From an uncultured Chloroflexia bacterium (lineage in GTDB: Bacteria > Chloroflexota > Limnocylindria > Limnocylindrales > CSP1-4): a stretch of 64,000 nt of DNA. The stretch spans positions 833,092-897,091 of the forward strand of contig CAVQCV010000005.1 of the NCBI GenBank assembly GCA_963711105.1, written 5' to 3'. The position numbers were made by a program, and so were the translations under genes. The notes below the pieces were generated by a model that did not search any database, was not told the DNA's origin, and was given only the letters and a program-made list of their open reading frames with translations. Shown piece by piece: positions 6,861 through 64,000 of the stretch. Each line of letters begins with the position of its first letter. Within the stretch, counting starts at the first letter, position 1.

Positions 6861-7781
6861 TCAGCGCTTCGGTTCCGAGGCGCCGGCATCCATGCCCTTG
6901 CCGACCATCGAACCGAGAGGGCCCAGGAGCTGCGTGAACTCCAGCGGGATCACGAACTTGGTCGCCGGACCGCTGCCGAGCGCCTTGAGGGCGTCCAGGT
7001 ACTGCAGGGCCATGGTCTTCTGATCGATGTTCTTGGCGGCGCCGAAGATCGTGTTGAGCGCCTCGCTGAAGCCCTGGGCTCGAAGGATTGCGGCCTGCCG
7101 GTCGCCTTCAGCGCGAAGGATGGCCGATTGCTTGTCACCCTCGGCCACGTTGATCGTGGCCTGGCGCGTGCCTTCCGACTCGGTGATGACCGCGCGCCGG
7201 GTTCGCTCTGCCGACAGCTGGCGGTTCATCGCCTCCTGTACCGCGGGCGGGGGCAGGATCTCGCGGATCTCGACGGTCATCACCTTACCGCCCCAGCGTT
7301 CGGTGACCTCGTCGAGCTTGATTCGCAGGGCCTCGTTGATGCGCTCGCGCTGAGACAGGACGTCATCGAGCACGATGTCGCCGATAACCGAACGGAGGGA
7401 CGTCGCGGCCACACCCTGGAGGGCGCCGGCGAAATTGAGGACGTTGACCTGGCTCATAAGCGGGTCAACGATCTTCCAGTAGATCAGGAAGTCGACGCCC
7501 AGCGGCGCGTTGTCCTTGGTGATGGCGGTCTGGCGCGGCACTTCGATGAACTGCTCGCGCAGATCGACGATGGCGCCCCTGTCCGCAACGGGGACGAGGA
7601 CATGGAACCCAGGCCTTCGAACCTTCCCGTTGTCGGTGCGGCCCCACCGATAGACGACCATCATGGCCCACTGGGGGACGATGCGGATGTACGCCGCCCC
7701 GATCGCGAGGACCACCAGTACGAAGATGATTATCCCGATGATGATCGCTGTCGTCGCTCCGTCCATTGCCTGGACCTCCAT
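6861..7781 (-). CDS. SPFH/band-7 (stomatin/prohibitin-like) membrane protein
   Basis: An N-terminal TM is followed by the SPFH core VVYRWGRTDNGKVRRPGFHVLVPVADRGAIVDLREQ...TKDNAPLGVDFLIYWKIVDP. A C-terminal region rich in A/E/R/Q follows. Confidence 0.85.
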   Translation of the reverse strand: MEVQAMDGATTAIIIGIIIFVLVVLAIGAAYIRIVPQWAMMVVYRWGRTDNGKVRRPGFHVLVPVADRGAIVDLREQFIEVPRQTAITKDNAPLGVDFLIYWKIVDPLMSQVNVLNFAGALQGVAATSLRSVIGDIVLDDVLSQRERINEALRIKLDEVTERWGGKVMTVEIREILPPPAVQEAMNRQLSAERTRRAVITESEGTRQATINVAEGDKQSAILRAEGDRQAAILRAQGFSEALNTIFGAAKNIDQKTMALQYLDALKALGSGPATKFVIPLEFTQLLGPLGSMVGKGMDAGASEPKR

Positions 7782-7842
7782 CTGTGGCCGCCGGCTGGCG
7801 GACGTCTCCGGCCCGGGTGGCCGATTGCTGCCTGTGCTCTAG

Positions 7843-8361
7843 CTACTGCTTGCTCAATTCGATCACTCGCACCACCGTGATGATGCCGCCCCAGGCCGCA
7901 ACCTTCTCTTCGAGTTGCTCCCGGATCTTCTCTCCCAGCCAGATCTGCTTTCGGATGACGTCCCCGGACGTCATCTCGGCGACCAGGGATCGCGCCATCT
8001 GCGAGGCAACGTCGACCACGGCGCCCCGGAAGTCAAGGACCCGGACCTGGCTCAGCAGCGGATCGACGATCTTCCAGTGGATCTCCAGGTCCGCCGCCAC
8101 TGCCTCCCGGTCGGACGTCAGGAGGGTCTGCGGACCGATGCGGCCGACCTGCTCACGCAGGTCGACGATGACGCCCCGATCCGCGACCGGCACGACCAAC
8201 CGGAGGCCGGGCATCCGGACTAACTCGGGACCGGTGCGGCCCCAGCGATAGACCACCATGCAGCCCCAGGCCGGAACTCGGCGGACCGCCATCGCGAACC
8301 AGGCCGCGAAGATGATGCCGCCGGCGACGAGGATCAGGAGGATGGCCCCGACCGACTCCAC
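7843..8361 (-). CDS. Short SPFH/band-7 domain protein (172 aa, no C-terminal coiled-coil)
   Basis: An N-terminal TM is followed by VVYRWGRTGPELVRMPGLRLVVPVADRGVIVDLREQ...DLEIHWKIVDP. It is paralogous to 6861..7781 and lies 4 nt downstream of the NfeD-like gene. Confidence 0.8.
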   Translation of the reverse strand: MESVGAILLILVAGGIIFAAWFAMAVRRVPAWGCMVVYRWGRTGPELVRMPGLRLVVPVADRGVIVDLREQVGRIGPQTLLTSDREAVAADLEIHWKIVDPLLSQVRVLDFRGAVVDVASQMARSLVAEMTSGDVIRKQIWLGEKIREQLEEKVAAWGGIITVVRVIELSKQ

Positions 8362-8365
8362 GGTC

Positions 8366-9949
8366 CTACTCCGGCTCGACTATGAGGGTCAGGCCTTCTA
8401 TGGCTATGACCCTGACCCGAGCTCCTCGAGCCGCCGTGCCGCCGTCGGCCACGCGGGCCGACCACGACTCTCGGGACACGTAGACCGTACCGAGGGGCGC
8501 CAGGTCCTTTTCGACCTCGCCGATCATGCCCATCACGTCGGTCGCTCCGACGAGCCCCTGGCCCACGGGGATCGGTTGACGGCGCATCAGCAGGAGCGTC
8601 CTGACGAGGACCAGCCCGTAGCCCGCGGCCGTGCCGGCCATCACCGCGATGACCGGCCAGGCGACTTCGGCCGCCGGCAGATATGGACCCGGCGAGCCGT
8701 AGAAGGCGACTGCGCCGACGACGAAGCTGGCGATGCCACCGATCGTCAGCAACCCATGGCTGGGCACGGCCGGCTCCAGGATCAACATCACGACGCCCAG
8801 GATTACCAGCGCCACCCCCAGGACGTTGAGTGGCAGGCTGCCCGAGCCGTAGAAGGACAGGACCAGGGCCAAGGCCCCGACCAGGCCCATCAGCAAGGTG
8901 GGATGGAAGAACTCGATTGCCACGAGCAGGATGCCGATCACGAGCAGGATGAAGGCGATGTTCGGATCGTCCAGACCGTGCAGGATCGCCTGGATTGGAT
9001 CCTCGCCGATTGTCACGATCGTGGCGCCGCTGGTGTGGACCGTGACCTGCGCGCCGTTGATCGTCACGACCTGGCCGTCGGCCTGGGCCAGGACCTCGTC
9101 CAGGCTGTTGGCGATGCCGTTGATGCCGTGTGCCGCCAGGGCCTCCTGGGCCGTGTAGGACTGCGCGTTCGAGACGGTACTGGCCGCCCAGTCGACCGCC
9201 AGCGGATGACGCTCCTCGGCGATACTCTTGATCGTTGCGACCGCATCGTTGAGGACCTTATCGGCTTCCGTCTGGCCGTACGTGGCGGCGATATCTCCTC
9301 CGCCGGCCGCGACCGGCGACGCTGCGCCGATGTTCGTGCTTTCGGCCATGTAGGCCAGGTTGGCGGAAAGGGTTATGAACGTACCCGCGCTGGCCGCCTT
9401 GGCGCCGGAGGGTCCAACCCAGACGATCGTCGGGATGCTCGCGTGCAGCGAGGTCACGATGTCCATCATCGAGCTCTCGGCGCCACCGAGAGTATCGAGC
9501 TGGATGATCACGGCAGCCGCGCCGTCGTCCTCGGCTCGTCGGACGCCGGCCGCGATGTAGCCCGCCATGACGTCGTCAACGACACCGTTGGTCGGCAGGA
9601 CCACGACCTCCCGCGCGGGCGGCGAACCTGACGCCGGGGAGGGTGCGGCCGTCATCGGCGGCGGCACGATTGCGCTGTCCGGGCCGCCACTTCTGATCTG
9701 ACCCACCCCCACCAGCAAGCCGATTCCCAACGCCAGCGTCGCTGCCACCCGAGATGCGCCCCAGGCCGCTCGCCGGACCTGCCCGGGCGTTCCAACCCAA
9801 CCGGACAACCGGGCCAGGTGGCCGTCGCGCCCTTTGTCGGACTGGACGGTCCAGGGCAGAGAGGTCATCTCGTCGGGGAGCGGCGGCGTCCTGCTGCTTC
9901 GGGCGAAACGGCGCAGCCGCTCGTCGAGTTCGAAGTCCGTCTCGTTCAT
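8366..9949 (-). CDS. Fusion protein: anti-sigma-factor-like N-terminal domain, one TM, NfeD-family (ClpP-class) membrane serine protease domain, multi-TM segment and C-terminal OB-fold
   Basis: The start ATG overlaps the stop of ECF sigma gene 9946..10551 (ATGA), indicating translational coupling. The N-terminus MNETDFELDERLRRFARS resembles that of anti-sigma 60942..62342 (MTDRTDFELDQDLVRRLRS). The NfeD/ClpP-like region includes VVVLPTNGVVDDVMAGYIAAGVRRA...AVIIQLDTLGG...SAGTFI. Four or five TM helices follow, then an NfeD C-terminal beta-domain (GTVYVSRESWSARV). Confidence 0.75.
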   Translation of the reverse strand: MNETDFELDERLRRFARSSRTPPLPDEMTSLPWTVQSDKGRDGHLARLSGWVGTPGQVRRAAWGASRVAATLALGIGLLVGVGQIRSGGPDSAIVPPPMTAAPSPASGSPPAREVVVLPTNGVVDDVMAGYIAAGVRRAEDDGAAAVIIQLDTLGGAESSMMDIVTSLHASIPTIVWVGPSGAKAASAGTFITLSANLAYMAESTNIGAASPVAAGGGDIAATYGQTEADKVLNDAVATIKSIAEERHPLAVDWAASTVSNAQSYTAQEALAAHGINGIANSLDEVLAQADGQVVTINGAQVTVHTSGATIVTIGEDPIQAILHGLDDPNIAFILLVIGILLVAIEFFHPTLLMGLVGALALVLSFYGSGSLPLNVLGVALVILGVVMLILEPAVPSHGLLTIGGIASFVVGAVAFYGSPGPYLPAAEVAWPVIAVMAGTAAGYGLVLVRTLLLMRRQPIPVGQGLVGATDVMGMIGEVEKDLAPLGTVYVSRESWSARVADGGTAARGARVRVIAIEGLTLIVEPE

Positions 9950-10551
9950 GGCAGTGCCCCTTCCGCCGGCCCGATACGCCGGCGCAACGCCTGCAGGGCG
10001 GCATGGTGGCGCGATTTGACCGTGCCGATGGGAATGCGAAGCCGGTCGGCGATCTCGGCCAGGGACAGCTCGCCCCAGTACCGCAGGACCACGACCATTC
10101 GGAGTTCGTTGCTGAGGCTCCCGAGCGCGCGTCCGACGGCGTCGCGGGCCAGCGAGGCCTTGAACGGGTCGCCGCCCTCGAGGTCCACGTCGTCCACGTC
10201 CACGGTGCGGTGGCGCGACCGCTTGTGGAGCCGGGTTCGGCAGACGTTGACGAGTATCTGGTTGAACCAGGAGTGGAACTTCTCCCGTTCTCTCAGTTTC
10301 GCCCAGGCGCGCCAGGCGCGAACCGATGCTTCCTGCACGGCATCCTGAGCCTCGGCGGAGTCGGCCAGCAAATAGCCGGCCAGGCGGTAGGCGCCCGGCA
10401 ATTCGGCCGCCAGAAACTCCGCGAACACCGAGTCCACGGCCGTTTCACGGGCGGCGGCGCCGTGAACGGAGGCCCGTAACATCTCGCGATTCAGATATGC
10501 GTCTTCGACGAACACGCCACTCTCGCTGGGCGGACCGACTCGGCCACTCAT
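9946..10551 (-). CDS. ECF-type RNA polymerase sigma-70 factor
   Basis: Region 2 (AQDAVQEASVRAWRAW...FHSWFNQILVNVCRTRL) and region 4 (LRYWGELSLAEIADRLRIPIGTVKSRHHAAL) are both recognisable. Confidence 0.88.
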   Translation of the reverse strand: MSGRVGPPSESGVFVEDAYLNREMLRASVHGAAARETAVDSVFAEFLAAELPGAYRLAGYLLADSAEAQDAVQEASVRAWRAWAKLREREKFHSWFNQILVNVCRTRLHKRSRHRTVDVDDVDLEGGDPFKASLARDAVGRALGSLSNELRMVVVLRYWGELSLAEIADRLRIPIGTVKSRHHAALQALRRRIGPAEGALP

Positions 10552-11159
10552 CGGTGAGACTCCGGCGCCGGGCTCGAGGTTCGGCCGAGGAGAGCGTCGA
10601 GAACAAGCTGGCTCCAGGTTTCCATTCGATCGTAGACCTCGTTCGCCGAAGCGACGGTCTCGAACGACCCCGCCAGCTTGTGCGTCTCGCGAACCGAGAC
10701 CTGGCGCCCACCGGCGTCCGCGAGGTAGACCACGCCCAGGTGGTGCCGGCCCACCTCCACCTCATCGTCGTTGAGCAAGCCGAGGAATTCGAACTCGGGC
10801 ATGAAGTCGGCCACGATCTCCTCGCGCCACTCGCGCCGAAGGCACGTCTCGACCGTGTCGTCGCCGGGGTTCATGTGGCCGCCGATGCCGATGGTGTAGT
10901 GATCGTGGAGCCGCGCATCGCCACCTGCCCTGGTCCGCCTCATCAAGAAGAGCCGCTCCTCCTGCCGCAGAACCATATACGGGATGATCTGCTTGATCGA
11001 GTCGTCCATTTCGGCCGCCGGTCGCGGATAGAACGAGCCCAGGGCTATCCGGCCGAGAACGGCCCCGGTTGCGCTCGTAAGCACGCCCCGCCAGGCCAGC
11101 CCGTCCATCAGGACGCTGCGCGGCACGGCCCAGACCAACTCCTCCCCCTGCTGGGTCAT
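10548..11159 (-). CDS. NUDIX-family hydrolase (putative)
   Basis: A Nudix-box-like segment GGHMNPGDDTVETCLRREWREEIV is present. The fold context is IIPYMVLRQEERLFLMRRT. The gene overlaps the downstream sigma gene by 4 nt. Confidence 0.55.
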   Translation of the reverse strand: MTQQGEELVWAVPRSVLMDGLAWRGVLTSATGAVLGRIALGSFYPRPAAEMDDSIKQIIPYMVLRQEERLFLMRRTRAGGDARLHDHYTIGIGGHMNPGDDTVETCLRREWREEIVADFMPEFEFLGLLNDDEVEVGRHHLGVVYLADAGGRQVSVRETHKLAGSFETVASANEVYDRMETWSQLVLDALLGRTSSPAPESHR

Positions 11160-24075: not shown

Positions 24076-24150
24076 TGGTAGCGGAGACTGGATTTGAACC
24101 AGTGACCAAGGGCTTATGAGTCCCCTGCTCTACCACTGAGCTACTCCGCC
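24076..24150 (-). tRNA. tRNA-Met (anticodon CAU); tRNA-Ile2(LAU) cannot be excluded from sequence alone
   Basis: The minus-strand sequence is GGCGGAGTAGCTCAGTGGTAGAGCAGGGGACTCATAAGCCCTTGGTCACTGGTTCAAATCCAGTCTCCGCTACCA. It has a 7-bp acceptor stem, a GTTCAAATC T-loop, a CTCATAA anticodon loop and an encoded CCA. Confidence 0.85.
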
Positions 24151-57818: not shown

Positions 57819-60566
57819 TCAACGGCCCAGCCGCTGCGTCAGCCGGGAGACCAGCTCTTCAAGCTCCGCGGCCCTGGCCCTGGCGCCTTCCACGACGGCC
57901 GGCGGGGCCTTCGAGACGAACGACTCGTTAGCCAGGCGGGCGCGCGCGGCAGCGAGCATCGCCTCCGCTTCGGCCAGCTCACGCTCCAGGCGAGCGTGGT
58001 CGCGTTCGTCCTGGACCGCGTCGCGGGCCTCGGGGCGCACCAGCGCCTCGCACTCGCCCGAGATCACAGACAGGCCCCCGGCAACTCCCCCGCGAACCGC
58101 TGCGGCACTTTGCGCGCGGGTCAGGGGCCGGGCCCGGGATAGGCGCTCCACCGCCGGCCGGAGCGCCTCGTACGTGGCGGCCAGCGATTCGGGCACGAAC
58201 ACGTCCACCGGCAGCCAGGCGGCCGGCTCGATGCGAGCCTCGGACCGCGCGTTGCGAATGGCTCTTACAAGGTCGATGAGCGCGGCCACTTCGGTTTCGG
58301 CGGCGGCGTCGGCAGAGGATCCGGCCACGACCGGCCAATCCGCGACGATCAGCATCTCCGGGTCCGCCGCCATCTTGGGCAGCCGCTCCCAGATCTCCTC
58401 GGTCACGAACGGCATCGTCGGATGGAGCAGGCGCAGGTACGTATCGAGGACGTCGACGAGGGTCCACCACGTGGCCTCGCGAGCAGGCGACGGCAGCGAG
58501 TCGTCCGACAGCCGGACCTTCGCCAGTTCGACCGCCCAGTCGCAGTACTCGTTCCAGATGGCTTCGTACAGGATCTGACTGGCGTCGCCGAAGGCGTACT
58601 GGGCCATCGCTTCGTCCACGGACTTCGCAGTGGCGGCCGTGCGGGACAGAATCCACCGATCGGACGGACCGACGAGGTCGCGGTCCGGGAGTTGCCGAGG
58701 GGCGTCCGCGGCAATAGACGCCGGTCGCGCGCCCAGCACGAAGCGGGCCACGTTCCAGAGCTTGTTGGTGAAGTTGCGGGCGTTCTCGAGCTTCTCCGTG
58801 CCGAGCCTGGCGTCGTTGCCCGGCGCCGTGCCATTGACCAGTGCGAAGCGAAGCGCGTCGGCGCCCACCTCCTCGATGGTCGCGAGCGGATCGACCGTGT
58901 TGCCCTTCGTCTTGGACATCTTCTGACCGTACGGATCGCGGATCAGGCCGGACAGATAGACCGTGTGGAAGGGCGCCTGCCCCGTGAAGTGGATGCCCAG
59001 CATCATCATCCGGGCAACCCAGAAGAAGATGATGTCGTAGGCCGTCTCCATGACCGAGGTCGGGTAGAAGCGCTCGAAGTCCCGGGTCTTCTCCGGCCAG
59101 CCGAGCGTCGAGAACGGCCACAGGCCCGAGCTGAACCAGGTGTCGAAGATGTCCTCGTCCTGGCGCAGGTCGCCGACCGGGCGGCCGCAGACCTCGCAGG
59201 CGGACGGGCCGGCCGGATCGGCCGACACCGTCACGTGGCCGTCGGGGCAGTACCAGGCCGGGATTCGATGGCCCCACCAGAGCTGGCGGCTGACGTTCCA
59301 GTCGCGCATCTCCGTCATCCAGTGTTCCCAGACCTTGACGAAACGTTCCGGCAGGATCTGGGTCCGGCCCGTGCGCGTGGCCTTGAGCGCGGCCTCCGCC
59401 AGCGGCGCCACACGGACGAACCACTGGGTCTTGAGGCGCGGCTCGACGACATCGTCACTGCGCTGGCAGTGGCCGATCAGCGACACGTGCGGCTTGATCG
59501 ACTCCAGGTCGCCACGCTCCTGCAGCTCCTCCACTATCCGGCGGCGAGCTTCGTAGCGGTCCAGGCCGGCGAACTTGCCGCCGCTCTCGTTGATGCGCGC
59601 GGCGTCGTCCAGGACCGTGATCATCGGCAGGCCGTGGCGCTTGCCGGTCTCGTAGTCGTCGTTGTCGTGCGCCGGCGTGATCTTGACGGCGCCGGTTCCG
59701 AATGCCCGATCCACGACCGGATCGGCGATGATCGGCACGGGCCGATCCACGAACGGGATCATGGCCTTGCGGCCCACCAGCGCTGTGTAGCGCGGGTCCT
59801 CGGGGTTGACGGCCACGGCGGTGTCGCCCAGGAGCGTCTCCGGGCGGGTCGTCGCAACGGCGATCCAGACGTTCGGATCGGGCTTGCCCGTCCCGTCGTC
59901 GACCAGGTGGTAGCGCATCGTCCAGAGGCTGCCGTTCGTTTCGGTCGGGATCACCTCCAGGTCCGAAACGCTGGTCCGGCAGCCGGGGCACCAGTGGATC
60001 AGGGCTTCGGTGCGATACGCCAGGCCTTCGCGGTAGAGGCGCAGGAACGCCTCGCGCACGGCTCGCGCCGACACCTCGTCCATGGTGAAGCGGAGCCGGG
60101 TCATGTCCAGGGAGGCACCGACGCGACGCTGCTGGGACAGGATCGTGTTGCGGGTCTCCTCGACGAACTTCCACATCTCCTCGAGGTACCTATCGCGGCC
60201 CAGGGTGGCGCGGCTCTCACCCTTCTTGGCGAGCAGCTTGTCCAGCACGTACTGGGCGGCAATCGACGCATGGTCTAGTCCGGGCAGGAAGAGCGCGGGC
60301 CGGCCCTGCATTCGGGCGTGGCGGGTCATCAGGTCTTCGACCGTGGAGCGCTGGGCGTGGCCCAGGTGCAGCGAGCCGGTCACGTTGGGGGGCGGTTGGA
60401 TGATCGTGAAGGCCGGTTTCGACCAATCGGCGCGCGAGCCCTTGCCGTCCGGGTTGAAGACGTCGGCGGCCAGCCAGCGGTCGAAGATGGCGTGCTCTAC
60501 CTCGGCCGGCTTGTACGCCTTGGGCATCTCCGCTGCGTCCCGCTTCTCCGACACCGCTCGCTCCAT
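57819..60566 (-). CDS. valS: Valine--tRNA ligase
   Basis: The HIGH motif is PPPNVTGSLHLGHA and KMSKS is present. The editing and anticodon-binding domains are recognisable. The C-terminal coiled coil is ERELAEAEAMLAAARARL. The ORF's first ~65 codons look untranslated; the start is likely MERAVSEK (60566) or MPKAYKPAEVE (60527). Confidence 0.93.
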   Translation of the reverse strand: MERAVSEKRDAAEMPKAYKPAEVEHAIFDRWLAADVFNPDGKGSRADWSKPAFTIIQPPPNVTGSLHLGHAQRSTVEDLMTRHARMQGRPALFLPGLDHASIAAQYVLDKLLAKKGESRATLGRDRYLEEMWKFVEETRNTILSQQRRVGASLDMTRLRFTMDEVSARAVREAFLRLYREGLAYRTEALIHWCPGCRTSVSDLEVIPTETNGSLWTMRYHLVDDGTGKPDPNVWIAVATTRPETLLGDTAVAVNPEDPRYTALVGRKAMIPFVDRPVPIIADPVVDRAFGTGAVKITPAHDNDDYETGKRHGLPMITVLDDAARINESGGKFAGLDRYEARRRIVEELQERGDLESIKPHVSLIGHCQRSDDVVEPRLKTQWFVRVAPLAEAALKATRTGRTQILPERFVKVWEHWMTEMRDWNVSRQLWWGHRIPAWYCPDGHVTVSADPAGPSACEVCGRPVGDLRQDEDIFDTWFSSGLWPFSTLGWPEKTRDFERFYPTSVMETAYDIIFFWVARMMMLGIHFTGQAPFHTVYLSGLIRDPYGQKMSKTKGNTVDPLATIEEVGADALRFALVNGTAPGNDARLGTEKLENARNFTNKLWNVARFVLGARPASIAADAPRQLPDRDLVGPSDRWILSRTAATAKSVDEAMAQYAFGDASQILYEAIWNEYCDWAVELAKVRLSDDSLPSPAREATWWTLVDVLDTYLRLLHPTMPFVTEEIWERLPKMAADPEMLIVADWPVVAGSSADAAAETEVAALIDLVRAIRNARSEARIEPAAWLPVDVFVPESLAATYEALRPAVERLSRARPLTRAQSAAAVRGGVAGGLSVISGECEALVRPEARDAVQDERDHARLERELAEAEAMLAAARARLANESFVSKAPPAVVEGARARAAELEELVSRLTQRLGR

Positions 60567-60941
60567 CAATGATTCGACCCGCTCGCCCAGCGGACGAACG
60601 GGTCGTGGTACCACCTGCTGGTTCGGGAGCGTCCGGCTGCGCCGGGACGCTTTGGGCATTTGGTGCCCAAATGCCCGGAGGGACGCGCACATCGCGTGTC
60701 GGCCGGCTGGGCCGGCCCGGGCCTCCCCTTTTCGGCGCGCTATCGGGCGCCACCCGCACAACTCGCGAGCTACGTTCGCGCCGTTTCGACCGCGGGGCTT
60801 TCAGCCACTGACCCCGCTCTCTGCTGGCCGACCGGCGGCGCTACTCCTCTCGGTCGTCGCCGTGAGGCGGCGATCGTAGCACAGGGCCGCGAGGCGTCTC
60901 GCGGCCCTGTGAAGGTGCTGCCGTGGTCCAGAGCAGGACGT

Positions 60942-62342
60942 CTACTCCCCGGCCCCGTACTGACTATCGAAGAGGACTCCCCGCGGCATCAGGACGATCC
61001 CAAAGCCGCCATATGAGGCGCCGCCCGGGGCTCCCGCGGTCCATTCGATCGGCGTCCACACGGTGGCGTCGTATGAGATCCAGGCTTTGGCGCCGCCGTT
61101 CTTCACCGCAAGGAAGTACGTGCCGTTCGAGACGATCACGCCGTCGCCGTCATAGGTGGACGGGACCGTACCGAGAGGCGGGTACGCCTGTTCGATGGTC
61201 CAGGTGAGGCCGCCGTCGGTCGAGCGAGCCAGGCTGTCGACCGAGAGGATCACTATCGCGTCCCGCCCAAACTCGAGATAGTCCGCGGTGCCGGCGAAGT
61301 TGGAGTCGCTGTGCGTCCAGTTCCGGCCGTCATCCGAGAACCACAGCTGGCTGGTTACGGCCCTCGTTCCCGTCATTCCGCTGGGGATCGGCTCAGGGTA
61401 GGCGCTTCCGACCAGATAGAGGCGTCCGGCGTTCGCCTGGACGTGCGTTCTCGGAACATCGTCGGGCCCCAGGCAGGCGAGACCGGGCTCCATCGTCTCC
61501 TCGCCCCAGTGGACGCCGTCGGTCGAATACTCGACGTGGTAGCCGCAGCCGGTCGGCGAGCCCACGGTGAACGTGGTCGCGACAATCGCCGAGTCGGTAC
61601 CTGCGACCGAGACGATAGATCCGCTCAGATCGGCCACGCCGGCGTTCTGCCAGGTCGACCCGTCCGCGGTCGTCCAGGTCGACGCCGAACCGCCCGCGTC
61701 AACGGCAATGGCTATCAAGCCAACCGGCGCCGCGGCCACGTACACCGCGCCGGGCAAACCGGCAACCTTGGTCCAGCCTTCTCCCGTCGGCGAGATCCAG
61801 ACGCTGTCCGCCGGGCTGTACTGGCCGCCCGACACCGTCGAGCTGGTGGCGGCAAAGCCGCCCCTCCAGCTGATCACCTGCCCGACGCCGCCGGGAGCGC
61901 CAACCGAAGAGGCCCCCACGGAGGCCGGGCTCCAGGACAGACTGCTCCAGTTGGCTCCGAGGCCGGGGGTCGTCCAGTCGGGCTTCGGGCTGACGCCCGG
62001 TGTAGGCACGGGCACGGGCGACTGGGTCGGGCTCGGGGTCGGGCTCGAGGTCGGTGACTGAGACGAGGCGGTCTCCGGGTTCGCCGGCAGCCACCGGCCG
62101 GCCAGCGAAACGGCGACGACGATGGCCACGGAGGTGGCCGCCAACGAGCCGATCGTCCGCCAGGGGTGCCCGGCGAAAGGGTTGGCCAGGCCGCCCAGCC
62201 GCCGGCCGAGCCTGCGCCGGCTCGCGACCTCGACGGCGCGACGATAGATGGAGTCGGGCACCGGCACGGCCGGTGGGGCGCTGATCGACCGGAGCCGGCG
62301 CACCAGGTCCTGGTCGAGTTCGAAATCAGTTCGGTCCGTCAT
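60942..62342 (-). CDS. Membrane-anchored anti-sigma factor with extracytoplasmic BNR/Asp-box beta-propeller domain
   Basis: The start overlaps the sigma gene stop (ATGA). The N-terminus MTDRTDFELDQDLVRRLRS is followed by a single TM (IGSLAATSVAIVVAVSLAG) and a P/S/T linker. BNR repeats are STDGVHWG, SDDGRNWT and STDGGLTWT. Confidence 0.75.
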   Translation of the reverse strand: MTDRTDFELDQDLVRRLRSISAPPAVPVPDSIYRRAVEVASRRRLGRRLGGLANPFAGHPWRTIGSLAATSVAIVVAVSLAGRWLPANPETASSQSPTSSPTPSPTQSPVPVPTPGVSPKPDWTTPGLGANWSSLSWSPASVGASSVGAPGGVGQVISWRGGFAATSSTVSGGQYSPADSVWISPTGEGWTKVAGLPGAVYVAAAPVGLIAIAVDAGGSASTWTTADGSTWQNAGVADLSGSIVSVAGTDSAIVATTFTVGSPTGCGYHVEYSTDGVHWGEETMEPGLACLGPDDVPRTHVQANAGRLYLVGSAYPEPIPSGMTGTRAVTSQLWFSDDGRNWTHSDSNFAGTADYLEFGRDAIVILSVDSLARSTDGGLTWTIEQAYPPLGTVPSTYDGDGVIVSNGTYFLAVKNGGAKAWISYDATVWTPIEWTAGAPGGASYGGFGIVLMPRGVLFDSQYGAGE

Positions 62343-62917
62343 CGGGAGACCTCCCGGGTCGTGCTATCCAGCTCCGCTCGGAGCGACCTCATCGCGTAGT
62401 GGAGCCGCGACTTGACCGTGCCAAGCGGCAGGTTCATTCGATCGGCGATGTCTTCGAGCTGCAGGTCTCGCCAGAACCTCAGCGCCACCACCAACTGCTG
62501 GTCGGGCGGCAAGGTCCTGACGAGCCGGCCTACCTCGTCGCGGGCGAGGGCCTCGCGGAATGGGTCGCCGGCAGTGCGAACGGCCCTCGCGGCCCCCTCT
62601 TCGAGCTCCAGCTCGCGAACGCCGCGCCGGTGTCGCAATCGATCTCGACAGACGTTGACGACTATCCGGTCGAACCAGACGTCGAACCGGTCCGGATCGC
62701 GCAGCCTGGGCCAGGCCTGCCAGGCCTTCTCGAGAGCGTCCTGGACGGCGTCCTCGGCCTCCACTGAGTCGCGAAGCAGGTACCCCGCAAGCCGGTAAGC
62801 GTCCGCCACTTCCGAGCGGGTCAGGCGGACGAACTCGTCCGCGCCCCCTATCGCCCCGCCCCTGATGGCTACGTCGCCTGCCTCTCTTTCCTTCAATATC
62901 ACCCTCAGCTCCTCCAA
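62339..62917 (-). CDS. ECF-type RNA polymerase sigma-70 factor (paralog of 9946..10551)
   Basis: Region 2 is AEDAVQDALEKAWQAW...FDVWFDRIVVNVCRDRL. Region 4 is LRFWRDLQLEDIADRMNLPLGTVKSRLHYAM. Confidence 0.88.
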   Translation of the reverse strand: MEELRVILKEREAGDVAIRGGAIGGADEFVRLTRSEVADAYRLAGYLLRDSVEAEDAVQDALEKAWQAWPRLRDPDRFDVWFDRIVVNVCRDRLRHRRGVRELELEEGAARAVRTAGDPFREALARDEVGRLVRTLPPDQQLVVALRFWRDLQLEDIADRMNLPLGTVKSRLHYAMRSLRAELDSTTREVSR

Positions 62918-62991
62918 TCTTGTTCAGGCGACCATTCAAGACGGAGCCCCGAGCCAGAAGGTTCGATCTACACCCTTCAAGTGGCCGTCGC

Positions 62992-64000
62992 CTACTCGCC
63001 CGCACCCCAGTAGTACCCGTCCATGCTGTCGGTCCAGTAGCCCCGCGGCAGCAGGAAGTTCTCCTCCAGCGAGATGCCCACCCTGACGTGGGGCGGCAAC
63101 GGCTCGGCGAGCTTGGTCCAGGTCTGGCCATCGAACGAGGTCCAGGCCTGCCCGGCGAGCGTGCGGGCCAGGAATTGGTCCGTGTTCGAGAACAGCTCGC
63201 CCTTGCCTTTGAGCAGGTTCGTGGCGCCCTTGCCGAGCGGCCCCTCGGTGTCGTCCCTGGTCCAGATGGTCCCGTCGGTGGTCTTCAGCCAGAAGTCCCG
63301 GTACGGCAGAATCGCGCCCCGGCTCGCCACTTCGATTGCCCAGCGGTATTCGTGCCAGTCCGAAACGCTCTGCGAGATGTTGGGGATAGCCGCCGGAGTC
63401 CAGGACACCCCATCGGCAGACCAGTACGCCACGAGGCGGCCAGATCGGGCGCCATTGGCCGTGAGAAGGCCTACTGCCACGAACCTCTGCCCGATCCAGC
63501 GGGCGACCCAATCGTGGACGGTGCCGGCGGCGTTGGGCGTAACCTCCTGCCAGGTTTCGCCGGTAGCCGAGAACAGCAACGTGGTCGCGTCACACGGCGG
63601 CCCCTCCCCCACACTGCACGGACGCGCGTCACGTACGGGCGCGGCCACGTCGGGGGAAGTCCCGGCTGCCGTGAGAATCCCGATGGGGCTGCCCGCCGGA
63701 CCGTCGACGCCCAGGTTCGAGTTGTGAGACGGACTTTCGAAGAGCCGGCCGTTCAGCCCCGTCGTCTGAAGCCCCGTTGTCCAGTTCTGGCCGTCCTCAC
63801 TGACCCATACGGTCGAAAAGTCGTCGCTCAGGATCGTCAGGCCCACCGCGGACGGCACCGCCGGGGACCCCGGCGAACCCACAGCACGCCATGTCAGTCC
63901 ATCAGCCGACTCCCAGATGTACCCGCTCCGGGCGCCTGATTGCATGAACCCATAGATGACCCACCCGCCGCTCCAGTGGCTGAGGGTCCTGTTGTAGAAG
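62992..64000 (-). CDS. BNR/Asp-box repeat beta-propeller protein, 5'-truncated by the window end; paralog of the 60942..62342 ectodomain
   Basis: BNR repeats are SADGLTWR, SEDGQNWT, SADGVSWT, TTDGTIWT and SFDGQTWT. The shared C-terminal ending is ...YWGAGE. The reading frame is open to pos 64000. Confidence 0.65.
   Translation of the reverse strand, partial: FYNRTLSHWSGGWVIYGFMQSGARSGYIWESADGLTWRAVGSPGSPAVPSAVGLTILSDDFSTVWVSEDGQNWTTGLQTTGLNGRLFESPSHNSNLGVDGPAGSPIGILTAAGTSPDVAAPVRDARPCSVGEGPPCDATTLLFSATGETWQEVTPNAAGTVHDWVARWIGQRFVAVGLLTANGARSGRLVAYWSADGVSWTPAAIPNISQSVSDWHEYRWAIEVASRGAILPYRDFWLKTTDGTIWTRDDTEGPLGKGATNLLKGKGELFSNTDQFLARTLAGQAWTSFDGQTWTKLAEPLPPHVRVGISLEENFLLPRGYWTDSMDGYYWGAGE

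What the first reader, a model, noticed from the sequence alone, without database searches (positions are those of the whole stretch)
60942..64000. Paralogous ECF sigma/anti-sigma module whose anti-sigma ectodomain is a BNR beta-propeller, flanked by a second BNR paralog
Sigma 62339..62917 and sigma 9946..10551 are clear paralogs; region 2 and 4 sequences align residue by residue. Their coupled anti-sigma partners share the N-terminal sigma-binding segment but have entirely different extracytoplasmic parts. One carries the NfeD protease and OB-fold; the other carries a BNR/Asp-box propeller. A further BNR protein (62992..64000) with the same C-terminal ending lies just upstream of the second sigma. 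This is a clean case of sensor-domain swapping on a conserved sigma/anti-sigma chassis.
Basis: seen in the sequence. Interest (0 to 1): 0.55.

Follow-up and report, generated by a model that had tools for sequence, protein, structure and literature searches.

The report
ECF sigma with propeller-type anti-sigma partner
This is an ordinary stress-signalling gene pair, an alternative sigma factor plus a membrane protein that probably holds it in check, from an uncultured Chloroflexota bacterium; the sensor part is an uncatalogued seven-bladed propeller, and sister copies of the pair carry other sensor domains.

Summary
Sigma2 (62339..62902/62917, minus strand) and sigma1 (9946..10551) are ECF sigma paralogs, 48% identical. 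Each is followed, with a 4-nt ATGA overlap, by a single-pass membrane protein. The two partners share only a short N-terminal motif (14/30 identities). Statistically this is borderline, but the motif is conserved in 27 related Limnocylindria loci.

The extracytoplasmic parts differ completely:
- One is an NfeD protease with a C-terminal OB domain.
- The other is a seven-bladed beta-propeller with six Asp-box-like motifs (AlphaFold pLDDT 88). It hits no Pfam family.

The upstream "BNR paralog" runs off the window. Its orthologs carry the same N-terminal motif and follow their own ECF sigma, so it is most likely the partner of a third, tandem module.

A strictly conserved ECF-type promoter (GAACCTT-N13-CCGTC, 62940..62964) sits in front of sigma2. 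This argues for autoregulation.

Across relatives, this sigma clade pairs with at least five or six ectodomain types. The same propeller also occurs behind an unrelated ECF sigma and as a lipoprotein. Domain shuffling is therefore supported.

Sigma binding by the N-terminal segment is inferred, not shown, and it matches no known anti-sigma domain. Overall this is a new member of a very common kind, of moderate to low interest. The NfeD fusion is the most unusual piece.

The parts
62940..62964 (-). ECF-type promoter candidate: -35 GAACCTT, 13-nt spacer, -10 CCGTC, about 35-50 nt upstream of the sigma2 start
   Evidence: It is the only match in the window. The same elements occur once in front of every sigma2/sigma3-clade sigma in 17 related loci, with unconserved flanks. 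There is a single off-target match in about 250 kb of loci, and none in the sigma1/NfeD loci.
62339..62917 (-). ECF sigma factor sigma2. The ORF is listed from TTG 62917; the likely true start is GTG 62902, giving 187 aa.
   Evidence: Pfam Sigma70_r2 and Sigma70_r4 hit above threshold. The best NCBIfam model is TIGR02983, below its cutoff. It is 48% identical to sigma1 and 70-75% identical to orthologues in L002/L005. Conserved GGAGG plus GTG context supports the later start.
62160..62342 (-). Cytoplasmic N-terminal segment of the partner protein (residues 1-61): acidic patch, RRLRS, Pro-rich turn, second helix, basic juxtamembrane cluster. Putative sigma-binding module.
   Evidence: Motif shared with the NfeD fusion and conserved in orthologues. 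AlphaFold predicts helices 11-19 and 32-46 at low confidence. No Pfam or PDB anti-sigma match.
62088..62159 (-). Single transmembrane helix (about residues 62-85)
   Evidence: Kyte-Doolittle 19-mer scan.
61968..62087 (-). Pro/Ser/Thr-rich extracytoplasmic linker (about residues 86-125)
   Evidence: Read from the sequence. pLDDT below 50.
60942..61967 (-). Seven-bladed beta-propeller ectodomain with six Asp-box-like motifs (residues 184-190, 225-231, 273-279, 336-342, 375-381, 423-429). Ends ...YGAGE, followed by the stop codon.
   Evidence: AlphaFold model with an 81-sequence alignment: pLDDT 88.2, pTM 0.89, 27 strands in 7 groups. All Foldseek PDB hits are propellers, including sialidase 2sil, GH74, WDR5, kelch, sortilin and BAM-associated DUF6242; TM-score 0.35-0.53. 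The family profile hits the DUF6242 protein 9his_H at 2e-6 and sialidase B at 5e-5. Motifs.
62992..64000 (-). C-terminal 335 codons of a paralogous propeller membrane protein. The full-length database product P0012 is 467 aa. It is the probable partner of a third ECF sigma lying beyond the window end.
   Evidence: No stop codon up to base 64000. Full-length P0012 and orthologues P0013-P0016. In L072-L074, orthologue P0013 follows its own 182-aa ECF sigma with a 4-nt overlap and carries the EELERRLRAIG..PMP motif.
9946..10551 (-). Paralogous ECF sigma1 (201 aa). Its start overlaps the stop of an upstream NUDIX gene.
8366..9949 (-). Partner of sigma1: the same type of N-terminal motif and TM helix, fused to a complete NfeD1b (ClpP-like protease domain, membrane domain, C-terminal OB domain).
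   Evidence: Pfam NfeD1b_N, NfeD_membrane and NfeD all above cutoff. The same fusion follows the sigma1 orthologue in 15 other loci.
6861..8361 (-). Two SPFH/Band-7 genes (7843..8361 and 6861..7781) downstream of the NfeD fusion, the usual NfeD partners.
   Evidence: Pfam Band_7, 5e-18 and 2e-34.

Best explanation
Genes 62339..62917 and 60942..62342 form a canonical ECF signalling pair of an uncultured Limnocylindria (Chloroflexota) bacterium.

Sigma2 is translationally coupled to a single-pass membrane protein. Its roughly 60-residue cytoplasmic N-terminus (two short helices) is proposed to sequester the sigma at the membrane. This would work like short, class II-like anti-sigma factors (inferred).

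A Pro/Ser/Thr linker presents a seven-bladed Asp-box beta-propeller outside the cell as the input domain (the fold is shown; the ligand is unknown). It probably binds a glycan or envelope component rather than catalysing a reaction (inferred).

On signal, the sigma is released, by proteolysis or by conformational change (not determinable here). It then transcribes from the conserved GAACCTT-N13-CCGTC promoter in front of its own operon. That is positive autoregulation; the footprint is shown, its use by this sigma is inferred.

The pair belongs to a lineage-specific expansion:
- a tandem sister module, of which the window holds only the propeller partner at 62992..>64000;
- a more distant sister, sigma1 at 9946..10551, whose partner carries the same kind of N-terminal motif fused to an NfeD protease.

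The modules arose by duplication of the sigma/partner pair followed by exchange or fusion of the extracytoplasmic part.
For: - Sigma identity: Pfam r2 and r4 hits.
- Paralogy: 48% identity, E=1e-49.
- Coupling: 4-nt overlap in the window and in 26 of 27 related loci, with the remaining start directly abutting the sigma stop. It is also seen in L002, L005 and L072.
- N-terminal motif: conserved within each clade and shared between clades.
- TM helix at the same position, about residues 62-86, in both partners.
- The motif tracks sigma presence. Lipoprotein forms of the propeller have no adjacent sigma. A propeller with a different N-terminus follows a different ECF sigma.
- Propeller: pLDDT 88, pTM 0.89, seven blades, six Asp-box motifs. 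All Foldseek hits are propellers. The family profile hits DUF6242, sialidase and sortilin.
- Promoter footprint: one copy per sigma in 17 loci, with variable flanks.
- Literature: a +1 single-TM protein without a Pfam anti-sigma domain is the commonest ECF regulator pattern (PMC7826278). Two-helix class II anti-sigma factors such as CnrY bind sigma4 and sigma2 (PMC7406223).
Against: - No direct or in-silico test of sigma binding was possible.
- The N-terminal segment matches no Pfam or PDB anti-sigma domain, even at E<=10.
- Cross-clade similarity of the N-termini is short. It is not significant in an HMM-versus-ORFeome test: E=0.87 one way, nothing the other way.
- In the window alone, the promoter pattern is no rarer than chance (49 of 100 shuffles have a match). 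Its weight comes only from conservation.
- The authors of the ECF classification warn that such putative anti-sigma factors are not guaranteed to act as such.
Confidence: 0.7

Rival explanations
1. The +1 membrane protein is not an inhibitor of sigma2. It is simply a co-transcribed, sigma2-dependent surface protein. The conserved N-terminal motif serves another purpose, such as membrane targeting, turnover by the neighbouring ClpXP, or oligomerisation.
For: No known anti-sigma domain was detected. In orthologous loci clpP-clpX lie directly upstream of the sigma. PMC7826278 cautions that many +1 proteins are unverified.
Against: The motif and TM helix appear specifically when an ECF sigma is immediately upstream, and are replaced by a lipoprotein signal when none is. 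Motif variants co-diverge with sigma sub-clades. Translational coupling is maintained in all 27 loci (a 4-nt overlap in 26). The same N-terminal module is attached to unrelated ectodomains, which is hard to explain by an ectodomain-specific role.
Confidence: 0.15
2. The propeller proteins are membrane-anchored glycoside hydrolases. NCBI names one orthologue "sialidase family protein". On this view the sigma merely controls an enzyme gene.
For: NCBI's name for P0003. The top Foldseek hit is Salmonella sialidase 2sil, and GH74 xyloglucanases are among the hits. The family profile hits sialidase B at 5e-5. There is a weak NCBIfam hit to the F510_1955 glycosylhydrolase family, 27 bits against a cutoff of 175.
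Against: The matches cover only Asp-box blades, and TM-scores are 0.35-0.5. Invariant columns of the 16-sequence family alignment are almost all structural Asp-box residues (S, D, G, W). Only two near-invariant arginines occur, with no Arg triad and no Tyr/Glu pair. Only 6 of 73 relatives touch BNR_2. GH74 needs two propellers forming a cleft.
Confidence: 0.08
3. The N-terminal resemblance between the NfeD fusion and the propeller protein is chance or convergence (acidic helix followed by a Pro-rich turn). Only the sigmas are homologous, so there was no swapping on a shared chassis.
For: Only 14 identities over 30 residues. hhalign probability is 40%. The cross-clade HMM gives E=0.87 one way and no hit in the reverse direction. 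A database-wide profile search with the motif found nothing.
Against: Both segments sit at the very N-terminus of the +1 gene of homologous sigmas. Both have the same order of elements and a TM helix at the same residue number. Intermediate sub-clades (L029, L030, L031 and the sigma3 partners) carry the same E-x-x-L-R...P motif. The pairwise E-value and profile P-value of about 3e-4 are for unrestricted positions.
Confidence: 0.12

Closest known systems
Canonical ECF sigma / single-pass anti-sigma pairs (for example RpoE-RseA, SigW-RsiW, SigK-RskA) as catalogued in ECF classification 2.0 (PMC7826278)
   Same: Two-domain sigma (regions 2 and 4). The regulator is encoded at +1 and translationally coupled. 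It has one TM helix, a cytoplasmic N-terminus and a variable extracytoplasmic C-terminus. An autoregulatory GAAC...CGTC-type promoter is present.
   Different: The cytoplasmic segment is only about 60 aa. It matches no class I anti-sigma domain model (zf-HC2, RskA and others), and no binding data exist. The sigma scores below the cutoff of its best NCBIfam subfamily (TIGR02983).
[quoted passage not shown]
   Same: A short, two-helix cytoplasmic sigma-binding part followed by one TM helix. Two helices are predicted in the window protein at residues 11-19 and 32-46.
   Different: No sequence similarity was detected; the PDB profile search at E<=10 did not return CnrY. CnrY has a tiny periplasmic part and needs CnrX. 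Here a 340-aa propeller is attached directly.
Asp-box (BNR) beta-propellers: GH33 sialidases, GH74 xyloglucanases, sortilin Vps10 domain, DUF6242 BAM-associated lipoproteins of Bacteroidota (9his_H, 9hjm_H)
   Same: A beta-propeller with the S-x-D-x-G-x-x-W motif in the strand 3-4 hairpin of successive blades. The family profile and Foldseek both pick these families first.
   Different: No Pfam BNR, BNR_2, Sortilin or DUF6242 hit reaches threshold. TM-scores are only 0.35-0.53. There is no conserved catalytic set. It is a single seven-bladed domain on a membrane anchor.
NfeD1b / STOPP membrane proteases with SPFH partners (relevant to the paralogous module at 6861..10551)
   Same: All three NfeD Pfam domains are present, followed by two SPFH genes.
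   Different: It carries an extra roughly 110-residue N-terminus (motif, TM helix and linker). It is translationally coupled to an ECF sigma in 16 genomes. A full-text search found no paper linking NfeD with ECF/anti-sigma signalling.

Membership tests
ECF (group IV) sigma-70 factors | Regions sigma2 and sigma4 only; small size (about 170-220 aa) | tested here: met
   Pfam Sigma70_r2 (3e-14), Sigma70_r4 (2e-15) and Sigma70_ECF (1.6e-6), all above cutoffs. Length 187-192 aa. NCBIfam TIGR02937 sigma70-ECF scores 79 bits against a cutoff of 42.9.
TIGR02983 SigE-family (Streptomyces-type) ECF subfamily | Score at or above the curated cutoff of 141.55 bits | tested here: not met
   It is the best-scoring model but reaches only 110.7 bits (sigma2) and 110.8 bits (sigma1).
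ECF sigma / anti-sigma pair | Regulator gene adjacent to the sigma and co-transcribed | tested here: met
   4-nt ATGA overlap in the window. The +1 start overlaps by 4 nt in 26 of 27 related loci and abuts the sigma stop in the other.
ECF sigma / anti-sigma pair | Physical binding and inhibition of the sigma by the cytoplasmic domain | not testable with these tools
Class I anti-sigma domain (ASD; zf-HC2, RskA and similar) | Match to an ASD profile; about 100-aa four-helix cytoplasmic domain | tested here: not met
   No Pfam hit at E<=10 for five N-terminal segments. No PDB-sequence hit to any anti-sigma factor. The segment is about 60 aa, with two predicted helices.
ECF autoregulation | Conserved -35 GAAC / -10 CGTC-type promoter upstream of the sigma operon | tested here: met
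   GAACCTT-N13-CCGTC at 62940..62964. It is conserved in position and sequence in 17 loci with variable flanks. Use by this sigma was not tested.
BNR / Asp-box repeat proteins (Pfam PF02012, PF13088) | Profile match above the Pfam gathering score | tested here: not met
   No BNR hit for the window proteins at E<=1. Only 6 of 73 family members hit BNR_2, best 2.3e-7.
BNR / Asp-box repeat proteins | Repeated S-x-D-x-G-x-x-W motif on a beta-propeller fold | tested here: met
   Six motifs in the 466-aa protein and seven in the paralog. Seven-bladed model with pLDDT 88. All Foldseek hits are propellers, with probability 1.0.
GH33 sialidases | Conserved catalytic Arg triad, Tyr/Glu nucleophile pair and RIP motif | tested here: not met
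   Invariant and near-invariant columns of alignment A5 contain only two arginines (R307, R454) and no conserved Tyr/Glu pair. No R-[IL]-P motif is seen in the sequence.
NfeD1b (paralogous partner 8366..9949) | N-terminal ClpP-like domain, membrane domain and C-terminal OB domain | tested here: met
   PF25145 scores 55.5 bits (cutoff 40), PF24961 74 bits (cutoff 26) and PF01957 53.9 bits (cutoff 29.1).

The most novel reading that the evidence does not exclude
The roughly 45-60-residue N-terminal motif (acidic patch, RLRR[IF]A, P..[VL]P, second helix) may be an uncatalogued, class II-like anti-sigma module. It appears to be used widely in Limnocylindria and related high-GC lineages as a portable adaptor. 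In the sigma1 module it has been fused to a complete NfeD protease next to SPFH scaffold genes. On this reading, the state of an SPFH/NfeD membrane complex, or self-cleavage by the built-in protease, directly controls an ECF sigma. No such route has been described.
Probability: 0.25. Interest if true: 0.6.

Novelty: new member of a known kind. Interest (0 to 1): 0.33.

Why it matters
This gives a worked example, in an uncultured soil and peat lineage with no genetics, of how ECF signalling modules diversify. The sigma plus a short membrane adaptor are duplicated, and different extracytoplasmic domains are plugged in.

It also defines three concrete items:
- an unannotated Asp-box propeller family (thousands of distant relatives, almost none covered by Pfam);
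- a candidate promoter motif;
- a conserved sigma-NfeD fusion.

Annotation pipelines currently label these proteins "hypothetical" or, misleadingly, "sialidase". None of this changes the known logic of ECF signalling.

Tried and rejected
- **Database-wide motif search.** A profile search with the N-terminal motif alone (alignment A2) against 5.8 billion proteins returned nothing at E<=10. The motif is too short for that database size.
- **Sigma/anti-sigma model.** The interaction could not be modelled.
- **DNA beyond base 64000.** All routes failed. The exact-protein look-ups returned only a 1.8-kb Logan contig or nothing. Both metagenome scans added nothing new. The representative-genome scan did not contain this genome.
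- **Signals in 60500..64000.** No sigma-70-type promoter or intrinsic terminator was found. There was no Rfam element such as a T-box before valS; the only hit in the window is one tRNA at 24079..24150.
- **Promoter for sigma1.** No sigma2-type promoter was found in front of the sigma1 clade. The conserved words there are coding sequence of the upstream NUDIX gene.
- **Sialidase or glycosidase reading.** Rejected for lack of conserved catalytic residues.
- **Literature.** No paper links ECF/anti-sigma with NfeD or BNR. Three of the four listed "beta-propeller" hits were unrelated by title; the fourth, on Bacteroides polysaccharide-utilisation loci, was not opened.
Full report
**What is in the window**

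The window is 68.6% G+C. On the minus strand near its right end lie four genes:
- valS (ORF 57819..60761);
- a 466-aa ORF (60942..62342);
- a 192-aa ORF (62339..62917) whose stop overlaps the start of the 466-aa ORF by ATGA;
- an ORF ending at 62992.

Reading the last ORF's frame by hand shows no stop codon up to base 64000.

A second pair lies at 9946..10551 (201 aa) and 8366..9949 (527 aa), again with a 4-nt overlap.

**The sigmas**

Both small proteins hit Pfam Sigma70_r2 and Sigma70_r4 above threshold, and also the NCBIfam ECF superfamily model. Their best subfamily model, TIGR02983, scores about 111 bits against a cutoff of 141.55, so they are not members of it.

They align at 48% identity over 152 residues, E=1e-49. 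They are the only two ECF sigmas among all window ORFs.

Orthologue alignment and a conserved GGA(A)GGAG...GTG context suggest that sigma2 really starts at GTG 62902, giving 187 aa. That would explain why the 192-aa version is not on record.

**The partners' N-termini**

BLASTP of the two downstream proteins finds one meaningful segment: residues 3-32 versus 2-28, 14/30 identical, E=3e-4. Both proteins have their first hydrophobic helix at about residues 62-86.

I collected related loci by scanning one genome per species with a sigma alignment. This gave 27 Limnocylindria/Chloroflexota loci whose sigma is 46-75% identical to sigma2. In all 27, the next gene starts at the sigma stop (a 4-nt overlap in 26, a 1-nt gap in L016). 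Each opens with the same sequence of elements:
- an acidic patch;
- an (R)LRR[IF]A-like helix;
- a P..[VL]P turn;
- a second helix and a basic cluster;
- one TM helix.

The evidence for homology between the two clades' N-termini is mixed:
- Profile-profile comparison of the NfeD-type and propeller-type N-termini gives P=2.9e-4 over 29 columns, with probability 40%.
- A stricter test built an HMM from one clade, without the window's own protein, and searched all 571 window ORFs. It finds the other clade's N-terminus only at E=0.87 (rank 6, at the right position). The reverse search finds nothing.

The shared segment is therefore short, and on statistics alone it is borderline. What makes it credible is position, gene context and conservation. 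It hits no Pfam family and no solved anti-sigma factor, even at E<=10. AlphaFold predicts two short helices, 11-19 and 32-46, at low confidence.

**The ectodomains**

The 527-aa protein is a complete NfeD1b, with protease domain, membrane domain and C-terminal OB domain. It is followed by two SPFH genes.

The 466-aa protein has no Pfam hit. The evidence on its fold is as follows:
- It contains six S/T-x-D-G-x-x-W motifs.
- A first AlphaFold model with 12 sequences was mediocre (pLDDT 65).
- An exhaustive profile search supplied relatives. A model of residues 125-466 with 81 sequences then reached pLDDT 88.2 and pTM 0.89.
- That model has 27 strands that group into seven four-stranded blades. 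The N-terminal strand closes the last blade.
- All Foldseek PDB hits are beta-propellers: sialidase 2sil, GH74 xyloglucanases, WDR5, kelch, sortilin and BAM-associated DUF6242 proteins. TM-scores are only 0.35-0.53.
- The family profile hits the DUF6242 protein 9his_H (2e-6), sialidase B (5e-5) and sortilin (6e-4), each over two or three blades.
- Of 73 family members, only 6 touch Pfam BNR_2.

"BNR/Asp-box propeller" is thus right for fold and motif. However, the family is effectively uncatalogued.

The invariant columns are almost all structural Asp-box residues, and no sialidase-like catalytic set is conserved. I therefore favour a binding role over an enzymatic one.

**The flanking paralog**

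The window fragment is 26% identical to the propeller and aligns through all blades.

A homologue search returned the full-length product of the same genome, P0012 (467 aa). As annotated, it begins 20 residues before its TM helix. The search also returned four orthologues, 72-76% identical.

Two of the orthologues (P0013, P0016) extend 40 residues further. This extension carries MSRFEYEEELERRLRAIG..PMPGS, the same motif type.

On contigs L072-L074, P0013 follows its own 182-aa ECF sigma with a 4-nt overlap. That pair is followed by a second sigma, a 619-aa propeller partner, a 400-aa propeller protein and valS. L010 also has two sigmas in tandem.

The truncated N-terminus of orthologue P0015 is an assembly frameshift. 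The motif is encoded just upstream, split across two frames, and that contig also breaks valS and clpX into pieces.

The window's paralog is therefore most likely the partner of a third, tandem ECF module whose sigma lies beyond base 64000. I could not determine whether the motif is intact in this genome, because the source contig could not be fetched.

**Modularity**

Sigma sub-clades map cleanly onto partner types:
- The sigma1 clade (16 loci including the window) always has the NfeD fusion.
- The sigma2/sigma3 clade has single or tandem propellers, plus one 252-aa short form.
- Three outliers, 46-52% identical to sigma2, have a PD40 propeller, a genuine Pfam BNR_2 domain and an unknown 481-aa domain.

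Conversely, the same propeller family appears in other contexts:
- It follows a different ECF sigma (23% identical) with a different N-terminus in L004.
- It occurs as a lipoprotein with no sigma nearby in L003.
- Among 104 representatives it carries at least four kinds of anti-sigma-like N-termini, lipoboxes, or short N-terminal anchors.

**Promoter**

GAACCTTCTGGCTCGGGGCTCCGTC lies at 62964..62940 (minus strand), upstream of sigma2.

The pattern alone is not rare in one window. However, the same -35 GAACCTT and -10 (C)CGTC elements occur once in front of every sigma2/sigma3-clade sigma, with a 13-nt spacer. In front of sigma3 the -10 reads GTGTC. This holds in 17 loci, while the flanks vary. 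The pattern is essentially absent elsewhere and absent from all sigma1 loci.

This is the usual signature of ECF autoregulation. Sigma1 instead overlaps an upstream NUDIX gene and shows no such element.

In L002 and L005 the order is tig-clpP-clpX-sigma-partner-valS.

**Comparison with what is known**

The ECF classification paper states that the putative anti-sigma factor is typically at +1. It usually has one TM helix (82 groups), and in most cases it matches no Pfam anti-sigma domain. It also states that function is not guaranteed (PMC7826278).

Class II anti-sigma factors such as CnrY use just two helices to contact sigma4 and sigma2 (PMC7406223).

The present pair fits that common pattern. 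It is a new member rather than a new kind. Full-text searches found nothing linking ECF/anti-sigma with NfeD or BNR. The NfeD fusion, conserved in 16 genomes, is the least expected element.

**Verdict**

- Novelty is low to moderate.

Noticed in passing
window 6861..11159 (minus strand): Sigma1 sits in a long, overlapping gene string: NUDIX gene (10548..11159), sigma1, NfeD fusion and two SPFH genes. The sigma1 start overlaps the NUDIX stop. The sigma-NfeD fusion recurs in 15 other Limnocylindria loci. No paper linking NfeD to ECF signalling was found.
   Followed up: partly
window 62900..62917: The listed TTG start of sigma2 is probably wrong. Orthologues share GGA(A)GGAG-N8-GTG, which places the start at GTG 62902 (187 aa). 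The 192-aa version is not on record in the gene index.
   Followed up: partly
beyond window end (protein P0012): The database product of the flanking propeller gene starts at a Met that aligns with an internal Met (position 41) of its orthologues. It therefore lacks the N-terminal motif. This may be a start-codon call or a frameshift in the long contig. It could not be resolved.
   Followed up: partly
L075 5862..6036; L075 and L076 generally: These ENA long contigs show frameshift-like breaks: the motif is split across two frames, and valS and clpX are fragmented. Truncated gene calls from such assemblies should not be read as real domain loss.
   Followed up: partly
L006, L008, L009, L011, L013 (+1 genes of 800-863 aa): In several relatives the sigma2 partner carries two propellers in tandem. 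The C-terminal one is the orthologue of the window's propeller (38-43% identical). The N-terminal one is a divergent copy (about 25%).
   Followed up: partly
L002 3825..9506; L005 1703..7500: In orthologous loci the sigma2 module lies directly downstream of tig-clpP-clpX and upstream of valS. ClpXP degrades cleaved anti-sigma fragments in model systems (from my own knowledge), so the neighbourhood may or may not be meaningful.
   Followed up: no
one search hits P0046-P0048, P0054, P0057 and others: The propeller profile also matches giant proteins of 3,000-7,800 aa, with 10-25 matched stretches each. These are huge arrays of the same Asp-box blades. Their origin and function were not examined.
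   Followed up: no
window 24079..24150 (minus strand): The only Rfam match in the window at gathering threshold is a single tRNA gene.
   Followed up: no
window 60562..60941: The valS ORF as listed starts at TTG 60761, with an implausible basic, low-complexity N-terminus. The real start is probably near the MERAVSEKRD or MPKAYKP residues. That would leave a 300-400 nt untranslated gap after the propeller gene, with no Rfam element in it.
   Followed up: partly
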